Part shown: piece after piece, positions 2,856 through 56,332 of the stretch
Numbering within the stretch: position 1 is the stretch's first letter
How the letters are laid out: the number at the start of each line of letters is the position of its first letter
Assembly: GCA_002428325.1 (NCBI GenBank)
Contig: DIVR01000077.1
Coordinates: 1-56,332 of the forward strand
Length of the DNA stretch: 56,332 nucleotides
Origin: a bacterium UBP4_UBA6127
GTDB taxonomy: Bacteria > UBP4 > UBA4092
Direction of reading: 5' to 3'
Notes under the pieces: generated by a model
What the model was told of the DNA's origin: nothing
The model's database searches: none
What the model saw: the letters and a program-made list of their open reading frames with translations, nothing else
Program-made: the position numbers and the translations under genes

Positions 2856-2876
2856 TTTTGACTGCTGTCAAAAAAC
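2856..2876. repeat. palindromic element copy a (TTTTTGACtGCTGTCAAAAAA, one mismatch)
   Basis: Seen in the sequence, 166 nt upstream of the ECF sigma start codon. Confidence 0.8.
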
Positions 2877-4430: not shown

Positions 4431-4496
4431 AAACGGGGTGAGACCCAGGCTGATGGTTACAGCCTGGGTCCCCCCGGCAAAATAAAATAAACCTAA
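4431..4496 (+). other. conserved hairpin-containing non-coding element, copy 1
   Basis: aaacgg ggtgaGACCCAGGCTgatggttacAGCCTGGGTCcccccggcaaaataaaataaa. It has a 10-bp perfect stem at 4442-4470. It is near-identical to the element at 25581-25660. Confidence 0.6.
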
Positions 4497-5040: not shown

Positions 5041-5102
5041 GAAATGGGTCATAAAAAGGAGTCCTCTCCGTACCCCCACCGTCTCCTTACCGCCGTGATT
5101 AT

Positions 5103-5130
5103 TTGACAACTGTCAAAAAAATCGTATAAT
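5103..5130 (+). promoter_or_regulatory. near-consensus sigma70 promoter (TTGACA, 16-nt spacer, TATAAT) overlapped by palindrome copy b
   Basis: -35 TTGACA at 5103-5108 and -10 TATAAT at 5125-5130. The palindrome TTTGACAaCTGTCAAA at 5102-5117 covers the -35 hexamer and the spacer. Confidence 0.6.
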
Positions 5131-5256: not shown

Positions 5257-5382
5257 ATGAAGGGCCCCAAACCTATCAGGGATTTCACGTTGGTAGAATT
5301 ACTGATGGTCGTATCTATAATAGCAATCCTGGCAGCCATCACCCTCTCCCTGATATCCGGTGAAATAACCAGCTTTCGGTAA
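5257..5382 (+). CDS. 41-aa type IV pilin/pseudopilin N-terminal stub, possible pseudogene
   Basis: MKGPKPIRDFTLVELLMVVSIIAILAAITLSLISGEITSFR*. It has a class III signal-like N-terminus but D rather than G at the -1 position. There is no globular domain. It is not in the ORF track because it is shorter than 60 aa. It is preceded by the G-rich sequence aaggggggtt. Confidence 0.35.
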   Translation: MKGPKPIRDFTLVELLMVVSIIAILAAITLSLISGEITSFR

Positions 5383-6755: not shown

Positions 6756-6900
6756 AACCCTCCTCTTTCGTCTCCCTCAAGACTTAAAAACCTTTCGGTT
6801 TATAAGGAGTTATTTCTTTAATACTTTCTCTACAACTATTAAACTACTGTAACAGACATATCAACTCGCTAACATATAACATAATTAACTTTTATCAGTT

Positions 6901-8217
6901 CTATTTTTGCTTCCAATCAACCGTTTGGCAGGAATTCGGCAAGACCTGCAAGGTAGTGGATATAATATATGGTTTTTTAATAATTTTCAACTCATGGGTC
7001 CCTTCCAGGATATGGGACACGGAAGGTTTTTTTTGGTATCCATCCAGTAATATCAAGGCATCAGAAGGGATTTCTTCCAAGACAATCCGCCCCTCTCCCC
7101 GATGGAATAACTGGCTGTTTTGAATAATATACCTTCCGGTGAAGAATAAAGATATCAATATCATCAATACGGACGGGATGGAGGCATGAGGAATTTTCAT
7201 CAGCCAGTATCCTGCCAAGAGAGTGGCGGGAAATCCATAAAGGGCAAAAACAGTCCAGACCTGAGGATTGTTATCAGGATAATGGGTCAACATCAACCCC
7301 AGGGTTCCCAGGGTTGCCAACAATAGAAGGGGTACTTCCACAGGATTCCAGGCCTTTTGCCCATGGACCAGAGGAAGCAGCAGTAACAGGGGAATGGAAA
7401 AAAGGGAAATCCGGTATTGGAAATAAAGGATATTCCGCCAATAGGCCTTTCCCAAATAGGTATAATCCTCAGGCCTTCCCGGCTGGGGATGGAAACTCAT
7501 CCAATGGATATTCTCAAAGAAATCTCCTGAACCCCAGTTGAGCCAGGTAATTCCCACCATCAGAACAGCCAGAGGAATCAATCCCCACAGCCAGGTTTTT
7601 ATTTCATCCGTATGATGGCCCTTCAACCACCAGGCAAGGACCAGCACCGGAAAGTAAAACCCTACCTGCAGATGGCACCAGGCAGCCAGGCTGTAAGCCA
7701 AAGCCGGAGCCAGAGGAGAGTATTTCCCCTCACAATACCCAAACAGGTAATAAAAAAACATGGCGCTGGCCGCAATCACCAGGGCATAGGTTTCCAGAAA
7801 TCCATAAAATAGAACCGTGAACCCGGAACTCATAACCAAGCCAAAAGGGATCCACCCTTTGACTCCCCACCGTTCGCAGATTCGATAGAGGTAATACACA
7901 AAGATACTGCCTGCCAGACAGGCCACAAAATGCATGGCATATCGGCCATCCCAGCCCAGGAGATAACCGCCCGTCTTGTAACTCAGTTGATATAGAAAAA
8001 AGGAAAGCATCCTTCTTTTTCGAAACCAGACATCTCCCTCGACTTCTCTCAACCAGAGGTCAGCACTGCCTTCCCCTAATTGCACTGAACGGAAAAACCA
8101 GAAAACCAGGAAAAACACCCCGGACAGCAGCCAAGGTAAATATATTTCAATCCTGGAATTTCCAGAAAATGAAGAGAATTGAGATTGTTTCGGCAATCGG
8201 CTCATAGTCGGCAACAT
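6901..8217 (-). CDS. polytopic integral membrane protein, possibly GT-C-fold glycosyltransferase (DUF2723/PMT-like)
   Basis: 438 aa with at least 10 predicted TM helices. Acidic first-loop motif REVEGD. The family assignment is tentative. Confidence 0.3.
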   Translation of the reverse strand: MLPTMSRLPKQSQFSSFSGNSRIEIYLPWLLSGVFFLVFWFFRSVQLGEGSADLWLREVEGDVWFRKRRMLSFFLYQLSYKTGGYLLGWDGRYAMHFVACLAGSIFVYYLYRICERWGVKGWIPFGLVMSSGFTVLFYGFLETYALVIAASAMFFYYLFGYCEGKYSPLAPALAYSLAAWCHLQVGFYFPVLVLAWWLKGHHTDEIKTWLWGLIPLAVLMVGITWLNWGSGDFFENIHWMSFHPQPGRPEDYTYLGKAYWRNILYFQYRISLFSIPLLLLLPLVHGQKAWNPVEVPLLLLATLGTLGLMLTHYPDNNPQVWTVFALYGFPATLLAGYWLMKIPHASIPSVLMILISLFFTGRYIIQNSQLFHRGEGRIVLEEIPSDALILLDGYQKKPSVSHILEGTHELKIIKKPYIISTTLQVLPNSCQTVDWKQK

Positions 8218-25580: not shown

Positions 25581-25660
25581 AAACGGAGAGGGACCCAGGC
25601 TGATGGCAACAGGCTGGGTCAAACCCCGGGAAAGGAAAAAATAAAATATTTAAATAAAAA
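25581..25660 (+). other. conserved hairpin-containing non-coding element, copy 2
   Basis: aaacggagagGGACCCAGGCTgatggcaacAGgCTGGGTCaaaccccgggaaagg aaaaaataaaata. It aligns with copy 1 across its whole length. Confidence 0.6.
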
Positions 25661-32248: not shown

Positions 32249-32266
32249 TTTTGACAGCTGTCAAAA
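32249..32266. repeat. palindromic element copy c, perfect TTTTGACAGCTGTCAAAA, between convergent gene ends
   Basis: Seen in the sequence. Confidence 0.85.
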
Positions 32267-44235: not shown

Positions 44236-44429
44236 TCCAATTTCCCTTTCAATCCTATACTAATGGTTGCCTTATGGGTTAGATTTTATCATATTCCTTC
44301 TCTTATTCCGGGGATATTTACCCTCGGTTAATTATTTATTTCGGCTACTAAATTCTTTGTTATCAAAATTTAAGGGAAAATTTCACAGGTTTTGTTAAAA
44401 TAGTAGCCAGGGATTTTAGCTCTTTTTTC

Positions 44430-44458
44430 TTGACAAAAGACAAGGCTGTTAATAAACT
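44430..44458 (+). promoter_or_regulatory. sigma70-like promoter of the pilin gene (TTGACA, 17-nt spacer, TAAACT)
   Basis: Seen in the sequence. The leader is about 90 nt. Confidence 0.5.
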
Positions 44459-44548
44459 TAGTTTTTTATAAAGATGTATCGCCGGGAGGACTGTTTTTTT
44501 ATAGTCCGATTGTACCGGTTCACTCAGAGGGCAAGGAGGTGACTTTAT

Positions 44549-45199
44549 ATGATGTTTAACTCCCCCAAAAAAGGTTTTACCCTGATTGAATTGCTAATTG
44601 TTGTGGCGATTATTGCGATTCTGGCGGCCATTGCCATTCCCAACTTCCTGCAAGCCCAGGTTCGGGCCCGTGTCTCCAGTGTGAAATCGGGCATGCATAC
44701 TACGGCAACCGGTTTGGAATCTTACTATGTGGATAACAACGATTATCCGCCGACAATATATTCTGGAGATCAATTTAACTACCATATTCCTAATGAGGTT
44801 ACCACTCCAGTTGCCTATTTGACCAGCTGGCCGAAAGACCCCTTTGAAACCTATGCAGGAACCGGCGCAGGCTGGCTGCCTTTGAAATACCAACGGCCGG
44901 GTTTCGCCTATTACAATGGAGCTCTCACAAATTGGTACCTCCAAGTGCCGGGCACCTATCCGATTGACGATGGAACAGCAACCCTGTATCGGTTTTATGG
45001 TCCGGGAAATCCGGCTAATGATGCCGGATGTCCTGGTAGCGCAGTTAATATCCGATGGGCTGTTTTCAGTGTCGGTCCGGATAAAGAATTCGAGACCGCT
45101 CAGCCTATCCCCATGCGCACCTGGTATGACCCGACCAATGGTGTTGTCTCCAATGGAAATATTGTCAGAATCTCTGATGGTAATGGGAATTATAAATAA
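44549..45199 (+). CDS. GspG/PilA-like major pilin (prepilin N-terminus KGFTLIELLIVVAIIAILAAIAIPNF)
   Basis: Canonical G-1/F+1/E+5. C-terminal ..FSVGPDKEFE...TWYDPTNGVVSNGNI is GspG-like. RBS aaggagg. Confidence 0.8.
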   Translation: MMFNSPKKGFTLIELLIVVAIIAILAAIAIPNFLQAQVRARVSSVKSGMHTTATGLESYYVDNNDYPPTIYSGDQFNYHIPNEVTTPVAYLTSWPKDPFETYAGTGAGWLPLKYQRPGFAYYNGALTNWYLQVPGTYPIDDGTATLYRFYGPGNPANDAGCPGSAVNIRWAVFSVGPDKEFETAQPIPMRTWYDPTNGVVSNGNIVRISDGNGNYK

Positions 45200-48201: not shown

Positions 48202-48759
48202 TTGGGAAAAGTGTTTCTAAGACCGGGATTTTCCCCTGTCTTTATGGAAAATACGACAGTTTTATCCTCTTTTATTAAAAAAAACTTGGATTTTATTCAG
48301 ACCTGTCATACAATCACTTCCATTATGGAACATACCTACATCTTTTCTGAGGGGCACTGGGTTGCCCATGGCACCTATTTTGGCATGGATGGCAAACCGG
48401 TTCCCTTGGAGGGAATATCCAGAATCATTCATTCTGCCACACTCTGGCGTAATGACAGCACGATGAAAATTCTCCATCCCTCACCGGTGGAGTATCTGAA
48501 TGTCTATGAGATCCAGCCTTTCCATAATAAGGATTGGACGACCTGGCGTTCCCATCATCCGGCCCTGGGTTATCTCAAAGGGAAATTTATGGTGGTAGGC
48601 GAATGTATCCTTTCCGGGTATTCCTCCGAAAATGGCCTCTATTCCGGGACCGAAACCCTGATTCAAATCAGTCCCTCTCAATATCGCAGCTGGGGGATGT
48701 CTTTTAAATCCGGTGACAAATTATCATCCTGGATGTCCATTCTTACCAAAAAATCCTGA
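48202..48759 (+). CDS. hypothetical protein (beta-barrel-like; start uncertain, may be 48244 or 48322)
   Basis: The ORF has a TTG start in the track. Protein-like composition. No clear RBS. Confidence 0.35.
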   Translation: MGKVFLRPGFSPVFMENTTVLSSFIKKNLDFIQTCHTITSIMEHTYIFSEGHWVAHGTYFGMDGKPVPLEGISRIIHSATLWRNDSTMKILHPSPVEYLNVYEIQPFHNKDWTTWRSHHPALGYLKGKFMVVGECILSGYSSENGLYSGTETLIQISPSQYRSWGMSFKSGDKLSSWMSILTKKS

Positions 48760-48760
48760 G

Positions 48761-48780
48761 TTTTTGACAGCTGTCAAAAA
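48761..48780. repeat. palindromic element copy d, perfect TTTTTGACAGCTGTCAAAAA, 1 nt after the stop codon
   Basis: Seen in the sequence. Confidence 0.85.
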
Positions 48781-49233
48781 CTTCTTTCTGTAAAACCTTT
48801 CTCGGAAGATGCTCTCTTCCTTTTTTCCCCTTAATCAGGAATGATTCTTATTATTCCTGAGAGTTTTCACTGTTTCATATCCCTTCCCCTTCAGATTTGA
48901 TTCGGACTCTTAACGGAGTGCCTCTGAGATGCTCCGTTACTGATCCCTTACCTCTCAGGAAAACTTTTAGGGTGATTTTCGGAATGATTATTAAGATGGG
49001 AAAAATCTCTTTGGGAATCCGATGAAGGGGATTTATAAGAAAAACAGGGGTGGATTGCCCCAAGTTGGGGAAAATTAAAGTTCCCAGCCAGCCCATCCAA
49101 GTCAACAAAACCCTCCTTTAAACCAATATCTTTGTGTGTGGTATGATAAGAGGTCGTTTCCGGAATGCCTGGGATTTATCCGCAGAAGAAACGGTTCCGT
49201 ATTGAATTTGTTCAGGGTTAGGAGAATATAATC

Positions 49234-52221: not shown

Positions 52222-52758
52222 ATGATGGATGAATCCTTAGGACGAATATTTATAGAGAATTCCCTTTTCAGGTTCAGGGCATTGAAAGACCTGGGGGAGA
52301 AGGCGATTGGAGAGTTGGATGACGGAGAGCTGACCCTGTCGCCTGATTCAGAATCCAATTCAGTGGCGGTCATCTGCCAGCATCTTCATGGGAATATGTT
52401 TTCCCGGTGGACTCAGTTTCTTACTACGGATGGAGAAAAGGAGACCCGGGACCGGGATGCTGAATTTACCCCGCCGGGCTCTCTATCCAGATCTGAATTG
52501 ATGGAACGTTGGAATGAAGGCTGGGCAGCTGTTTTTACGGCTTTGGAAACCCTGGAGCCGGTGGACCTGCTGAAAATTATCACCATCCGGGGCCAGGGTT
52601 TAACCGTAATGGATGCCATTCTTCGGCAAATCTCCCATTATGGGTATCATGTGGGACAGATTGTCTATCTGGCTAAACAGCTCAGGGGTTCCCAGTGGAA
52701 GACCCTCTCTATTCCCCGGGGAAAATCCAGGGAATACCGTCCCCAAAAAAGGGATTAA
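52222..52758 (+). CDS. DinB/YfiT-like (DinB_2) metal-dependent helix-bundle protein
   Basis: Histidines ICQHLHGNMF ... ISHYGYHVGQIVYLAK. RBS ggagg. Confidence 0.55.
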   Translation: MMDESLGRIFIENSLFRFRALKDLGEKAIGELDDGELTLSPDSESNSVAVICQHLHGNMFSRWTQFLTTDGEKETRDRDAEFTPPGSLSRSELMERWNEGWAAVFTALETLEPVDLLKIITIRGQGLTVMDAILRQISHYGYHVGQIVYLAKQLRGSQWKTLSIPRGKSREYRPQKRD

Positions 52759-52824
52759 TACCTTTGTGTTTCTATCAAGTGATGTAAAATAGGGTTAGAA
52801 CCATAACCAGGGGAGGTGAGGCTG

Positions 52825-53073
52825 ATGTTAAGAGAACATCCACCTTGTCCAAAATGCGGTTCCCGGAAGGTGGCCCAGATTGTTTATGGGCTGATTAATG
52901 TAACAGACGAATTCAAGAAGTTTCTAGACCGGGGCGATGTCCTCCTGGGAGGGTGTTGTGTGGATTCTGATTCCCCTTCCTGGCATTGCCATCAATGCCA
53001 GCATGATTGGGGTAATTGGGCTGATGATGAGCAGGAACCTCCCTCCTGGGACCGAAAAGAAAATTTGATTTGA
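52825..53073 (+). CDS. small zinc-ribbon protein (CPKC ... CHQC)
   Basis: RBS gggaggtgagg. Two CxxC pairs. Confidence 0.5.
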   Translation: MLREHPPCPKCGSRKVAQIVYGLINVTDEFKKFLDRGDVLLGGCCVDSDSPSWHCHQCQHDWGNWADDEQEPPSWDRKENLI

Positions 53074-53296
53074 TTCAAGGTTTCTGATGGTTGAAAAACG
53101 GCGGCCTCTTCAGGAAGCTTTTCAGTGAAAAGGTTAGGATTGGCTTGTGTGTTAGGGGATGATTCCCGGATACTATTGTTTCGTGGCTCAGAGACCTTCC
53201 TTCGAAAAACTCTGCCTGAGCCCACTTGGGAAATTAATAATCATTCTGAAGATGGAGAGCCGCTTAATTTAAAGGTTATTGATTTCAAAAGACTTA

Positions 53297-53421
53297 TTTT
53301 TTGACAGCTGTCAAAAGGCAACCCTATGATTATCAGCCTTATATGTTTTTGACGCCTGTCAAAAAGGTACTATATCTATAGCCAGAATCTCTATTTTGAC
53401 ACCTGTACTTACCTTTAATAC
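53297..53421 (+). repeat. three phased tandem units (~45 bp) each with palindrome/-35 TTGAC(A/G) and a -10-like hexamer
   Basis: Unit 1: TTGACA at 53301-53306, 18-nt spacer, TATGAT at 53325-53330. Unit 2: TTGACG at 53349-53354, 16-nt spacer, TATATC. Unit 3: TTGACA at 53396-53401, 14-nt spacer, TAATAC. The palindromes degrade progressively from unit 1 to unit 3. Confidence 0.6.
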
Positions 53422-53715
53422 CCCTATTTTGGGATAGCCATGAATAAGTATCTGTTAATGGGTTCTAAGAGTCCTTGAATAGTTTATATGCCAGACTGGA
53501 AATAGCATAACCTCTATATTATCAATAATTAACCTGTTAATTACCTAGCTTAATCTTTTATTTAAATAAAATTATTTTATTTTTTTTAAAAATAAATGTC
53601 GGAAAATGGGCTTCTCATGTCTCTGTATATATTGAAGTTATATAGCTCCTTATATATTAGGAAACAAACTAGGAATAATTCTTAATTTACAGATAACAAG
53701 AAGAGGTATGAACCG

Positions 53716-55053
53716 ATGAAAAGAGTGATAGGACTGGCAATACTGTTAATAAGTCTACTGGGAATATCGCAGGGAGTTACGATAGAGCGGGATGAAAATG
53801 GCCTGTTGAAAGTATACCGGCTGCAGCTGGGAGCCTATCCTGAAGAGAGCACCGCTTTAGTGATAAAGTCCCAGGCTCTTGAATCGGGATTCACTCCTGT
53901 GAATATCGTGAATGAAAACGGTTATTACAAGGTCCAAGCCGGGGAGTATCCGGATTATCTGACCGTCAAAGAAACCCAATCCCTTCATACGACGGACTGG
54001 AAGGGATGTTTTGTGGTTATAAAAGAGATATCCGAGACCGAGAAGGTCTCTTTGGGAATAGAAGAGAAAAATCATCTATATGAAGAAGATATGGAGCGGG
54101 CTGTCCAAAGGCGAAGCGAGGGGCCGGATGAATTATGGGAAAAAGGGTTATTGGCTTGGAAGAGCGCCGAAACTGTTGATGATGCCATTGAGTGTTTTGC
54201 CTGCCTAGCCCAGAAATATCCTGCTCATGAGAAAAGTCAGAAAGCCAGGGTCAATCTAGGGAACCTTTATGCATCCAGAGCTTACCGGATGAAGATAAAA
54301 GGAACCGGAGATCTCCAAAGCCAATATCGGAATTTACTAAGTTCCGCATGTTTAATGAAGGAATATCTTAAGAATAATCCGAATGCTTCTGATGTATCGG
54401 CTGTTCAAGCTCGATTAGGGGATGTTTTATACGCTCTTTCCCGATACCGTGGGGCATCGAGGCAGAATATCAAGGAAGCTATTACCCAGATAGATCTCGC
54501 TCTTGGGAATGAACTCAGTTCAGAAACATCCACCCATCTCCGGATGGAAAGGACAGCCTATCTGTTAGAGCTGGCGCGAAATCATCAAGTTTCCTACGAT
54601 ACGGTCATAACTGAAATCAACCGGGCAGAGAAAACATCTTCCGGGGCTCAGGATAAAGACAAGGCCCGGTTGCAGCTGATGAGGGCGGAAGTTTATGTGG
54701 AAACAAATAATATGGATTTAGCGGAATATGTGGCCGATAACCTGGTCAGCCGTTATACGACCTTGAATTCTGAGAGGGCTACGGCCCAGTTTATCCAAGG
54801 ATACTGCATCATGCAGAGCCAGCATTTCCGGATGGCCCTTCCTGTGTTTGCCTCTGTTTTAAAGGATTATGATTCCCAGGAAGACCCATTAATAAAACTG
54901 ACCCAACGTGAGGCTCTTTTATGCAAGGGGATATGCGAATACAAAATAGGCGAAGAAGACCAGTCAAAAGAGACGTTCAAATCTGTGATAGAGAAGTATC
55001 CGGGAATGGAAGAATCCGCCGTTGCTCAACGTTATTTAGGGCAGATGGAATAG
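53716..55053 (+). CDS. SPOR-domain (peptidoglycan-binding) plus TPR-like protein
   Basis: SPOR-like segment VYRLQLGAYPEESTALVIKSQALESGFTPVNIVNENGYYKVQAGEY. TPR-like helical C-terminal part. Confidence 0.55.
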   Translation: MKRVIGLAILLISLLGISQGVTIERDENGLLKVYRLQLGAYPEESTALVIKSQALESGFTPVNIVNENGYYKVQAGEYPDYLTVKETQSLHTTDWKGCFVVIKEISETEKVSLGIEEKNHLYEEDMERAVQRRSEGPDELWEKGLLAWKSAETVDDAIECFACLAQKYPAHEKSQKARVNLGNLYASRAYRMKIKGTGDLQSQYRNLLSSACLMKEYLKNNPNASDVSAVQARLGDVLYALSRYRGASRQNIKEAITQIDLALGNELSSETSTHLRMERTAYLLELARNHQVSYDTVITEINRAEKTSSGAQDKDKARLQLMRAEVYVETNNMDLAEYVADNLVSRYTTLNSERATAQFIQGYCIMQSQHFRMALPVFASVLKDYDSQEDPLIKLTQREALLCKGICEYKIGEEDQSKETFKSVIEKYPGMEESAVAQRYLGQME

Positions 55054-55086: not shown

Positions 55087-56332
55087 ATGAATCCAATGAA
55101 AAGACATATCCAATCCACAATAAATTTACTGGCCATGGTTACTTTGTTACTATTGGTTGCCAATTCTTTGGCCGGCCCCCAATATTATTATAAAGATTTC
55201 CCTCCCGATTCATATTATAATCCTATGATTGATGGCCGTTGCCTATGCAATGAGGATGGGAAACCCACCGAAAAAGGTTCGGTTGTCGATATGACCAATG
55301 GGCAGGTGACCCTAGAGGATTTCTTCCCTGTCTATCCAACTGTTGGGGAACCCATCACTTTAATACGGCGGCATTTATCTTATGCGAATCCCGCCAAGAC
55401 CGAGTCCTATTCGAGTGCTTCAATTGCTACTGGCGCTGGCGGTGGGCTTACCAGTACCGTTTATACCTCAGATGTGTCTCCTCTACCCAATTTTGGGAAA
55501 GGGGCTATCTGGAGTTATTACGAATATATCCGAGAACCCGCTTTAGCTATTGCCAACAGCGGGAGCGGTCAATCAGGGAGTGGGACTTTATATGCTATGT
55601 CCACCGGGAATAAATATCTGACCCTGTATAAAGGGAATCATATGGTATTGGTATATCGGCAGAGCTCAACCAATCCCAATTTATTCTACCCGCTGGAAGG
55701 CGTGAAAGATAAGATCATTATGGAAGACACCATTTTCCGAAGAATTACTGAAGATGGGATAACCTTCGGTTATGAACGCGAGAGAGCTTTAAGCGCTACA
55801 GAAGGAAAACTTCTATACGTACAAGAACAGCATGGGCATCGCATCAATATATCTTATGGGATTCCTATTATAAGAATAACGGATGCTTCGGGAAATGGTT
55901 TTGATTTACATTATGTAACTTATAACGATACCCAATATATATCAAGGGTAGAGGTAGGAGATCGGTCATGGACTTATACCTATGATTATAGTGAAGGGAA
56001 TCTCACGGCTGTTTCTGATAATACCTTAGGGCGAACCACCCGTTATAGTTATGATACCTCTCATCGGATAAAATCAGTTTCATACAGTTGGAGTCCTATC
56101 AGCACTGCTTATGTCTATGATACTTATGGAAAATGCACCCAAAGGACTGAAGTCAACCGGGAGACCAGTCAAACCAAGACCTGGTATTATGCCTACGACA
56201 GCGCAAATTTCAAAGCAACAGCGATAGATCCTTCAGGTGTTGCCACTTATTATGAATATACAGCTCAAACCTGGCAACTCTCCAAAGTGACCCGCGGGGG
56301 AAAGGTACTGGTCCAGCTTACTCATGATGCGC
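55087..56332 (+). CDS. YD-repeat/Rhs-family protein, N-terminal part (runs off window end)
   Basis: Read by hand; it is not in the ORF track because no stop is reached. RBS aggag, 10 nt before the ATG. Signal peptide. YD repeats ..YTYDYSEGNLTAV..RYSYDTSHRIKSV..YVYDTYGKCT..YYEYTAQTWQLSKVT. Confidence 0.65.
   Translation, partial: MNPMKRHIQSTINLLAMVTLLLLVANSLAGPQYYYKDFPPDSYYNPMIDGRCLCNEDGKPTEKGSVVDMTNGQVTLEDFFPVYPTVGEPITLIRRHLSYANPAKTESYSSASIATGAGGGLTSTVYTSDVSPLPNFGKGAIWSYYEYIREPALAIANSGSGQSGSGTLYAMSTGNKYLTLYKGNHMVLVYRQSSTNPNLFYPLEGVKDKIIMEDTIFRRITEDGITFGYERERALSATEGKLLYVQEQHGHRINISYGIPIIRITDASGNGFDLHYVTYNDTQYISRVEVGDRSWTYTYDYSEGNLTAVSDNTLGRTTRYSYDTSHRIKSVSYSWSPISTAYVYDTYGKCTQRTEVNRETSQTKTWYYAYDSANFKATAIDPSGVATYYEYTAQTWQLSKVTRGGKVLVQLTHDA

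What the first reader, a model, noticed from the sequence alone, without database searches (positions are those of the whole stretch)
53297..53715. Phased array of three palindrome/promoter units followed by an AT-rich 300-nt leader
Three units of about 45 bp have 45-46-bp phasing, roughly four helical turns. Each unit has a TTGAC(A/G) hexamer and a TA-rich hexamer 14-18 nt downstream. Unit 1 is near consensus (TTGACA-18-TATGAT). The palindrome quality decays from unit 1 to unit 3. Downstream, 53400-53715 is markedly AT-rich compared with the rest of the window and precedes the SPOR-TPR gene at 53716. Tandem promoters with cooperative operator spacing are one reading; a small RNA gene is another.
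Basis: seen in the sequence. Interest (0 to 1): 0.55.

Follow-up and report, generated by a model that had tools for sequence, protein, structure and literature searches.

The report
Dispersed palindrome repeat marking genome mosaic junctions
The three "promoter units" are copies of an 18-base palindrome that recurs between genes across this uncultured bacterium's genome, and related strains differ in gene order exactly at these copies, so they look like recombination-prone repeat elements rather than a gene-specific set of promoters.

Summary
The units are TTTTGACAGCTGTCAAAA (53299-53316), TTTTGACGCCTGTCAAAA (53347-53364) and a left half only (53394-53406). Spacing is 48 and 47 bp, not 45-46.

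The palindrome is not local. The core TTGAC-N4-GTCAA occurs 6 times exactly in the window (0.06 expected), at 5 loci that are all intergenic. It also occurs in every close relative fetched.

About half of 12 independent loci lie between convergent gene ends, where no promoter belongs. Arrays of 2-3 copies with 46-49 bp periods recur at three unrelated loci, with unrelated spacer sequences.

Homology between strains starts or stops at a palindrome edge:
- L036 (96.6% identical over 14 kb) stops at 53316, then carries a Druantia-type defence gene.
- L003 starts at 53299.
- L040 starts at unit 2.
- L048 has a different spacer-2 allele.

Best reading (about 0.45): a lineage-specific interspersed palindromic repeat, closest to Neisseria dRS3/NIME arrays and REP clusters, acting as a protein-bound recombination or insertion hotspot. 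Unit 1 is also a credible sigma-70 promoter (TTGACA-18-TATGAT); units 2 and 3 are not. An operator array for a CRP/FNR-type regulator remains a live rival. There is no support for a small RNA, an origin or a centromere.

The parts
53299..53316 (.). Unit 1: perfect 18-bp palindrome TTTTGACAGCTGTCAAAA.
   Evidence: The L036 alignment to the window ends at 53316 and the L003 alignment starts at 53299.
53301..53330 (+). Predicted sigma-70-type promoter TTGACA-18-TATGAT, with its -35 inside unit 1. The inferred start is about 53337.
   Evidence: 11 of 12 matches. It is conserved in L048. The spacer is 19 nt in L003. The -10 is lost in L036 and the unit is absent in L040. No transcript data.
53317..53346 (.). 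Spacer 1 (30 nt), nearly identical in the window, L048 and L003.
   Evidence: Alignment A2. The block unit 1-spacer 1-unit 2 is about 95% identical to L003, against 83% for the flanks (my count).
53347..53364 (.). Unit 2: TTTTGACGCCTGTCAAAA, with perfect 7-bp arms and a variable centre.
   Evidence: In L040/L041/L043, homology to the window begins at this unit, downstream of aspS.
53365..53393 (.). Spacer 2 (29 nt): two alleles of equal length, about 45% identical.
   Evidence: The window allele is shared with L040. The other allele is shared by L048 and L003. This distribution disagrees with the flanking similarity.
53394..53406 (.). Unit 3: left arm and centre only (TTTTGACACCTGT).
   Evidence: It is conserved with point changes in L048, L003 and L040.
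53407..53715 (+). AT-rich non-coding stretch (53400-53715 is 28.5% GC) before the SPOR-TPR gene. It holds a block at 53588-53632 conserved in all relatives. The window lacks about 170-190 nt at 53494|53495 that relatives carry.
   Evidence: No DnaA-box cluster. No structured RNA.
2856..2873 (.). Family copy TTTTGACTGCTGTCAAAA, 152 nt upstream of an ECF sigma / FecR-like gene pair.
5101..5118 (.). Family copy ATTTGACAACTGTCAAAA. It forms TTGACA-16-TATAAT ahead of an unannotated 41-aa pilin-like ORF (5257-5382).
32249..32266 (.). Family copy identical to unit 1, between the convergent ends of a TPR gene and an SPFH gene.
   Evidence: A copy also lies downstream of the SPFH orthologue in L047, in an otherwise unalignable spacer.
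48762..48779 (.). Family copy identical to unit 1, starting 3 nt after the stop of ORF 48202-48759 and about 455 nt upstream of the GH2 gene.
   Evidence: In L037 the GH2 segment is inverted relative to that ORF, with a three-unit array (48 and 46 bp) at the pivot.
53716..55053 (+). SPOR-TPR gene (445 aa) downstream of the array.

Best explanation
The units are copies of a lineage-specific interspersed palindromic repeat. The core is TTGAC-N4-GTCAA; in this species it is TTTTGAC-N4-GTCAAAA.

Copies sit between genes, singly or in short arrays of 2-3 with a period of about 48 bp.

Inferred mechanism: each palindrome is bound by a dimeric protein and acts as a preferred crossover or insertion point. 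The protein is unidentified (a recombinase, a transposase or a nucleoid protein). Alternatively, the copies serve as portable micro-homology when foreign DNA is taken up. Exchange between copies then shuffles the segments on either side.

That exchange would build arrays of palindromes separated by unrelated short spacers. It would also place variable genes, such as defence islands, next to them.

As a by-product, every copy carries a consensus -35 hexamer on both strands. Where the flank supplies a -10, as at unit 1 and at copy 5101, it probably fires as a promoter.

Shown: the family, its intergenic placement, the fixed period and the junctions at copy edges. Inferred: protein binding, recombination as the cause, and promoter activity.
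For: Over-representation:
- 6 exact cores in the window against 0.06 expected.
- All 5 window loci are intergenic although intergenic DNA is 13% of the window (p about 4e-5).
- 4 of the 5 longest intergenic regions carry a copy.
- By my count, 16 independent exact copies were found across the window and relatives. None was found in the 20 kb of the distant relative L039.

Not a promoter family:
- 6 of 12 independent loci lie between convergent gene ends.

Junctions at copy edges:
- L036 is 96.6% identical over 14,090 bp and stops at 53316. It then carries DruE (PADLOC E = 2.6e-185).
- L003 homology starts at 53299, with unrelated genes upstream.
- L040, L041 and L043, three separate assemblies, join aspS to unit 2.
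- L048 carries a different spacer-2 allele in a 96%-identical background.
- L037 has GH2 inverted relative to the window, with an array at the pivot.
- One L047 copy has a 22-nt hairpin inserted at the palindrome centre.
- The chance of three ends falling within 2 nt of a palindrome edge is about 1e-4.

Fixed period with unrelated spacers at three loci:
- This locus: 48/47 bp, with orthologues at 48/47, 49/47 and 47.
- L026: 49 bp.
- L037: 48/46 bp.

Other support:
- In L026 the pair borders an AT-rich island with a PDC-S08 candidate and a SIR2-like gene.
- The NIME literature describes the same pattern in Neisseria and proposes the same two mechanisms (PMC1797815).
Against: - No recombinase, transposase or RAYT gene was seen in the window or near any copy.
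- Copy number per genome could not be measured. Only about 170 kb of this clade was available.
- The core matches a known regulator consensus (HcpR/FNR type, PMC1274295).
- The conserved period is just as well explained by cooperative regulator binding.
- The block unit 1-spacer 1-unit 2 is more conserved than its flanks, which hints at a local function such as a promoter plus operators.
- -10-like hexamers are enriched on one side of copies: 4 of 20 against 3.3% background, p = 0.004.
- The L003 configuration rests on a single metagenome contig.
- An 18-22 bp repeat is short for RecA-dependent exchange.
Confidence: 0.45

Rival explanations
1. The units are an operator array for a dimeric helix-turn-helix regulator, of the CRP/FNR family (HcpR-type) or a TetR-like repressor. 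The palindromes are binding sites of a global regulator. Neighbouring dimers 46-49 bp apart bind cooperatively. At this locus they would repress or activate the unit 1 promoter, with unit 1 over the -35 and unit 2 at about +10 to +27.
For: - The core equals the published consensus wyTTGACnnnnGTCAArw for HcpR-type FNR-like regulators (PMC1274295).
- The core is kept across species even where the T4/A4 flanks are not (L037, L047).
- The period is conserved with free spacer sequence.
- Unit 1-spacer 1-unit 2 is more conserved than its flanks.
- From my own knowledge, not tested here: tandem CRP sites about 50 bp apart are known from E. coli class III and CytR-regulated promoters.
Against: - Half of the loci lie between convergent gene ends.
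- Copies are near-identical rather than degenerate.
- Homology breaks at copy edges and defence islands abut them. A regulon does not predict either.
- No CRP/FNR gene and no hcp-type target is in the window.
- The neighbouring genes share no theme.
Confidence: 0.25
2. One reading: three tandem sigma-70 promoters feed a long leader of the SPOR-TPR gene.
For: - Unit 1 matches 11 of 12 consensus positions.
- Other TTGACA/TAnnnT promoters in the window suggest the organism uses this consensus.
- Copy 5101 forms a perfect TTGACA-16-TATAAT ahead of a small ORF.
Against: - Unit 2 has TTGACG and TATATC, with no final T.
- Unit 3 has no -10 at 16-19 nt.
- Unit 1 is missing in L040, and its -10 is replaced in L036.
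- The leader would be 380-570 nt long.
- In L001 another gene sits between the conserved leader and the SPOR-TPR gene.
- A proximal block (53588-53632) conserved in all relatives is a better candidate for the gene's own promoter.
Confidence: 0.1
3. The units are centromere-like (parS- or sopC-like) sites: arrays of palindromes bound by a ParB-family protein for DNA segregation or chromosome organisation.
For: - The central 14 bp equal the repABC parS of plasmid pAMI4, GTTGACAGCTGTCAAC (PMC9040568).
- Copies are near-perfect, and arrays have a fixed period.
- From my own knowledge: the F plasmid sopC has 43-bp units that each hold a palindrome.
Against: - The outer G and C of the repABC consensus are not matched.
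- No par or rep genes and no canonical parS are in the window.
- Copies are scattered about one per 10 kb in ordinary chromosomal contexts and in several species. They are strictly intergenic, which parS sites need not be.
Confidence: 0.05
4. The region is a small RNA gene, or a replication origin (repeats plus an AT-rich unwinding region).
For: - A promoter-like unit 1 is followed by conserved non-coding sequence.
- The AT-rich stretch lies next to the repeats.
- The cumulative GC skew minimum falls at 44-49 kb.
- gidB lies about 1.7 kb from the array in L003.
Against: - No Rfam hit.
- Folding z-score -0.05 and no covariation.
- No DnaA-box cluster, and at best 2-mismatch boxes in 53000-53800.
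- The left flank differs in every lineage.
- The palindrome occurs at many loci.
Confidence: 0.03

Closest known systems
Neisseria dRS3 repeats and NIME arrays (PMC1797815)
   Same: - A short inverted repeat with conserved arms and a variable centre, strictly intergenic.
- It occurs singly or in arrays separated by unrelated short spacers.
- Arrays differ between strains in unit number.
- Recombination end points fall at the arrays.
- Neighbouring genes are variable.
   Different: - The sequence differs: ATTCCC-N8-GGGAAT against TTTTGAC-N4-GTCAAAA.
- The host is an unrelated uncultured lineage.
- Spacers here are 28-31 bp with a fixed period, against 19-214 bp in Neisseria.
- No cognate phage transposase or integrating phage is known here.
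- Arrays seen so far have at most 3 units.
REP / BIME / REPIN elements of proteobacteria (PMC3116915)
   Same: - Extragenic palindromic repeats, often at gene 3' ends and between convergent genes.
- Copies are near-identical.
- Doublets and clusters occur at preferred distances.
   Different: - Here the palindrome is perfect, AT-flanked and only 18-22 bp.
- Its RNA hairpins are weak: -4.7 to -11.4 kcal/mol.
- There is no conserved 5' GTAG-type tetranucleotide.
- No RAYT gene was found.
- Each copy is its own inverse, so a doublet does not form a REPIN-type long hairpin.
FNR/HcpR-type operator TTGAC-N4-GTCAA (PMC1274295)
   Same: The 14-bp core and its flanking preference (wy...rw) are identical.
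   Different: - Known sites sit upstream of hcp/frdX-type genes, near the regulator gene, in small numbers.
- Here copies are frequent and near-identical. Half are in non-promoter positions, and they sit at mosaic junctions.
repABC parS of pAMI4, GTTGACAGCTGTCAAC (PMC9040568)
   Same: The central 14 bp are identical, and clustered copies (3parS) exist on that plasmid.
   Different: - That system belongs to alphaproteobacterial plasmids with repABC genes.
- The outer consensus bases are not matched here.
- No partition genes are present.

Membership tests
Sigma-70-type promoter | -35 TTGACA and -10 TATAAT hexamers 16-19 nt apart | tested here: met
   Met for unit 1 only: TTGACA-18-TATGAT, 11 of 12. 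Unit 2 is TTGACG-16-TATATC without the final T. Unit 3 has none.
Sigma-70-type promoter | A transcription start 5-9 nt after the -10 | not testable with these tools
   No transcript data were available.
REP / REPIN | Over-represented extragenic palindromic repeat | tested here: met
   6 exact cores against 0.06 expected, all intergenic. The genome-wide copy number is unknown.
REP / REPIN | A RAYT (REP-associated tyrosine transposase) gene flanked by copies, and a conserved 5' GTAG-type tetranucleotide | tested here: not met
   No transposase domain in any window ORF scanned. No conserved tetranucleotide beside the copies. The rest of the genome was not available.
REP / REPIN | Doublets at a preferred distance that fold into a long hairpin | tested here: inconclusive
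   A preferred distance of 46-49 bp is met at three loci. The spacers are not self-complementary, and each copy is its own inverse.
NIME / dRS3 | The sequence ATTCCC-N8-GGGAAT in a Neisseria genome | tested here: not met
   The sequence and the host are different.
NIME / dRS3 | Arrays of inverted repeats separated by unrelated spacers, variable between strains, with recombination ends at the repeats | tested here: met
NIME / dRS3 | A cognate recombinase or integrating phage that uses the repeat | not testable with these tools
   None was found in the available DNA. There were 0 hits for the 18-mer in viral contigs.
CRP/FNR (HcpR-type) operator | 14-bp palindrome TTGAC-N4-GTCAA | tested here: met
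CRP/FNR (HcpR-type) operator | Position upstream of regulated genes, with the regulator gene present | tested here: not met
   6 of 12 loci lie between convergent ends. No CRP/FNR-family gene is in the window. The rest of the genome was not seen.
repABC parS | GTTNNCNGCNGNNAAC next to repABC genes | tested here: not met
   14 of 16 positions match, but the outer G and C are T and A (my comparison with the consensus). No rep or par genes are in the window.
Integron attC | R''/R' cores RYYYAAC and GTTRRRY, with an integron integrase nearby | tested here: not met
   The arms are GAC/GTC rather than AAC/GTT (sequence). The attC consensus is recalled from my own knowledge. No integrase was found. 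Only the layout of two simple sites 30 nt apart is similar.
Known RNA family (Rfam) | Match at the gathering score | tested here: not met
oriC | A DnaA-box cluster beside an AT-rich unwinding element | tested here: not met
   No box with at most 1 mismatch in 53000-53800.

The most novel reading that the evidence does not exclude
The palindrome is the crossover or target site of a dedicated, still unidentified recombinase. If so, this would be a NIME-like system in a lineage unrelated to Neisseria. It would exchange intergenic cassettes, build arrays with a 48-bp period, and capture defence islands (Druantia-type, SIR2-like) and variable surface or toxin loci next to the repeats.
Probability: 0.2. 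Interest if true: 0.7.

Novelty: new variant of a known kind. Interest (0 to 1): 0.45.

Why it matters
NIME-type arrays were reported as not observed outside Neisseria (PMC1797815). A comparable system in an uncultured anaerobe from hydrocarbon- and organohalide-degrading consortia would suggest that short palindromic repeats as recombination hotspots are a more general way to mobilise neighbouring genes. Those genes here include anti-phage defence islands.

Practically, the repeat explains strain-level contig breaks and mosaic junctions in metagenome assemblies of this clade. It also gives a simple sequence tag for finding variable loci. In addition, it shows that a repeat can seed near-consensus promoters, because its arms contain TTGACA.

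Tried and rejected
- Scan of genome contigs for the exact 18-mer. Only L026 was relevant.
- Metagenome scan for tandem pairs. It returned only unrelated hits: L033/L034, which carry telomere-like repeats, and L035, a large palindrome.
- Viral contigs: 0 hits. Plasmid and phage collections: nothing relevant.
- Intrinsic terminator. The hairpins are weak and flanked 5'-U / 3'-A, so no 3' U-tract follows. The terminator scan did not flag them.
- Small RNA.
- Sigma-54 promoter, IHF site, LexA box and Rrf2/IscR site. I inspected the sequence by eye against consensus sequences recalled from my own knowledge. The spacing or the bases do not fit.
- Origin of replication and canonical parS.
- Cognate protein among neighbours. 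The ORF ending 3 nt before copy 48762, and other unknown ORFs beside copies, have no DNA-binding or recombinase signature.
- Longer shared element. In this species nothing beyond 18-25 bp is shared between copies. In the L047 species an 88-nt unit is shared.
- Taxonomy. Accession searches in the literature were uninformative. The phylum remains undetermined.

Full report
**1. What is there**

The sequence at 53297-53410 holds three units that share TTTTGAC-NN-CTGT.
- Unit 1 (53299-53316) is the perfect palindrome TTTTGACAGCTGTCAAAA.
- Unit 2 (53347-53364) is TTTTGACGCCTGTCAAAA.
- Unit 3 (53394-53406) keeps only the left arm and the centre.

Start-to-start spacing is 48 and 47 bp, about 4.5 helical turns, not 45-46 bp.

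The promoter scan reports one + strand site in 52700-54000: unit 1, TTGACA-18-TATGAT, 11 of 12. Unit 2 has TTGACG and TATATC at 16 nt. Unit 3 has no -10 at 16-19 nt.

The stretch 53400-53715 has 28.5% GC. That is low, but it lies within the 27-49% range of intergenic regions in this window.

Two other assemblies of the same strain carry the identical array: L044 (100% identical) and L045 (99.9%).

**2. The units belong to a dispersed family**

The core TTGAC-N4-GTCAA occurs six times exactly in the window: 2858, 5103, 32251, 48764, 53301 and 53349.
- Base composition predicts 0.06 exact copies.
- Counting copies with up to one mismatch gives 9, against 1.5 in shuffles.

With the T4/A4 flanks, copies have either 0-1 mismatch or a chance-level 2-3 mismatches.

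All five loci are intergenic, although intergenic DNA is 13% of the window. Four of the five longest intergenic regions carry a copy.

Within this species nothing beyond 18-25 bp is shared between copies.

**3. Relatives**

The SPOR-TPR protein has only close homologues. Through it, the GH2 protein and the SPFH protein, I fetched contigs at several distances. Copies occur in all relatives down to about 75% protein identity. None occurs in the 20 kb of a 46% relative, L039.

In the L037/L047 species the flanks are not T4/A4, but the core is kept. There the repeat can be part of an 88-nt unit present four times in a 1.8-kb gene-free stretch.

**4. Position relative to genes**

Of 12 independent loci, six lie between convergent gene ends:
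- window 32251
- L026
- L037 6458
- L037 12380-12474
- L041 421
- L036 14068

A seventh candidate, window 5103, lies in an annotated convergent region but is followed by an unannotated 41-aa pilin-like ORF. Convergent regions are 14% of intergenic regions by number and 19% by length, giving p = 0.003-0.015. This does not fit an element whose general job is to start transcription.

The RNA hairpins are weak (-4.7 to -11.4 kcal/mol) and have no 3' U-tract, so they are not intrinsic terminators either.

**5. Homology breaks at the palindromes**

- L036 aligns to the window over 14,090 bp at 96.6% and stops at 53316, the last base of unit 1. Beyond it lie a DruE-type helicase (PADLOC E = 2.6e-185) and a 1051-aa unknown.
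- L003 shares nothing with the window to the left of 53299, the first base of unit 1. Its upstream genes are a lipoprotein, a DJ-1-family gene and gidB.
- L040, L041 and L043 are three separate assemblies. All have aspS upstream, and their homology to the window begins at unit 2. Unit 1 and spacer 1 are absent.
- L048 is 96% identical to the window overall and has all three units. Its spacer 2 is the L003-type allele: the same length, but about 45% identical to the window's. The window's allele is shared with L040.
- In L037 the GH2 gene is inverted relative to the ORF that ends at copy 48762. A three-unit array (48 and 46 bp) sits at the pivot.
- In L026 a pair 49 bp apart separates rnc from an AT-rich stretch that holds a PDC-S08 candidate and a SIR2-like gene.

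The chance that three alignment ends fall within 2 nt of a palindrome edge in this 642-nt spacer is about 1e-4.

Caveat: the L003 arrangement rests on one contig. A repeat of 18-22 bp is too short to cause mis-joins at the k-mer sizes these assemblies used.

**6. Conserved period, free spacers**

The period is:
- 48/47 bp in the window and L048
- 49/47 bp in L003
- 47 bp in L040
- 49 bp in L026
- 48/46 bp in L037

The spacers are unrelated in sequence or exist as divergent alleles of equal length. This points to a constraint on geometry, most simply proteins bound to neighbouring palindromes. The block unit 1-spacer 1-unit 2 is about 95% identical between the window and L003, against 83% for the flanks.

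**7. Promoter content**

The arms contain TTGACA on both strands. Other intergenic sites (25508 on the minus strand, 33932, 44430) show TTGACA-16/18-TAnnnT, so the organism appears to use this consensus.

A -10 with at least 5 of 6 matches follows the hexamer at 16-19 nt in 4 of 20 copies on one side and 0 of 20 on the other, against a background of 3.3% (p = 0.004).

So some copies probably act as promoters, including unit 1 and copy 5101 (a perfect TTGACA-16-TATAAT). This property is not conserved with the palindrome: the -10 is lost in L036 and unit 1 is absent in L040.

**8. Other readings tested**

- No Rfam family matches.
- The folding z-score is -0.05, and four homologues show no covariation.
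- There is no DnaA-box cluster and no canonical parS.
- The 18-mer has no hits in viral contigs, and the region has nothing relevant in plasmids or phages.
- The literature gives two sequence matches. One is the HcpR/FNR-type consensus wyTTGACnnnnGTCAArw (PMC1274295). The other is the repABC parS GTTGACAGCTGTCAAC (PMC9040568).
- The window has no CRP/FNR, Rep or Par gene.

**9. Conclusion**

The best-supported account is a lineage-specific interspersed palindromic repeat that behaves like Neisseria dRS3/NIME arrays and, more loosely, like REP clusters. It is intergenic, near-identical between copies and arranged in short arrays with unrelated spacers. It varies between strains and sits exactly at recombination junctions and next to variable genes (PMC1797815; PMC3116915).

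Still inferred: that a protein binds the palindrome, and that recombination is enzyme-driven rather than micro-homology-driven.

The main rival is an operator array for an FNR/HcpR-like regulator. It is kept alive by the consensus match and the conserved period.

The small-RNA idea has no support.

Noticed in passing
window 4442-4475 and 25592-25625; L003 about 6775-6810: A second dispersed repeat: a GC-rich hairpin, GACCCAGGCTGATGG..ACAGSCTGGGTC. It sits in intergenic DNA after gene ends and looks terminator-like.
   Followed up: partly
window 53494|53495: The window lacks about 170-190 nt that L003, L040 and L001 carry in the AT-rich leader. L048 carries part of it. In L048 an RHS-related rearrangement starts inside this extra segment.
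   Followed up: partly
L001 330-1760: An AT-rich 361-aa ORF with no Pfam match is inserted between the conserved leader block (window 53588-53632) and the SPOR-TPR start.
   Followed up: no
window 5257-5382: An unannotated 41-aa ORF with a pilin-type N-terminal methylation motif (weak Pfam hit, E = 0.0011). It lies about 120 nt downstream of the consensus promoter formed by copy 5101.
   Followed up: partly
L036 14439-22264: A Druantia-like defence island directly right of unit 1 in a strain 96.6% identical to the window. It holds a DruE-type helicase (E = 2.6e-185) and a 1051-aa unknown.
   Followed up: partly
window 32270, 32288, 32306: Three ACCTGT motifs with an 18-nt period lie immediately after palindrome 32249-32266. 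Unit 3 and unit 2 also contain CCTGT.
   Followed up: no
L047 6600-8410: A gene-free 1.8-kb stretch downstream of the SPFH orthologue. It holds four copies of an 88-nt repeat that begins in the palindrome, plus CACGAAA-type repeats. One copy has a 22-nt hairpin inserted in the palindrome centre.
   Followed up: partly
L040 4942-13139; L048 10391-16793; window 55100-56332: A polymorphic RHS / YD-shell toxin locus lies downstream of the SPOR-TPR gene. It has differing N-terminal content and a series of small ORFs. In L048 the SPOR-TPR gene and most of the RHS gene are missing.
   Followed up: no
L004, L010, L023, L024 (Parabacteroides contigs): The identical 18-mer occurs several times in Parabacteroides faecalis and a related MAG. 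There it is embedded in local arrays with AAAGCTTT motifs. This looks like an unrelated repeat system.
   Followed up: no
window 44236-44548 and the whole window: The cumulative GC skew has its minimum at about 44-49 kb, where gene orientation switches. The only perfect DnaA box is at 44728. The window is too short to call an origin.
   Followed up: no
window 48912-48942; L047 about 6955-6990: A shared hairpin, AACGGAGTGCCTCTGA...CTCCGTT, lies about 150-170 nt downstream of a palindrome copy at two non-orthologous loci in two species.
   Followed up: no
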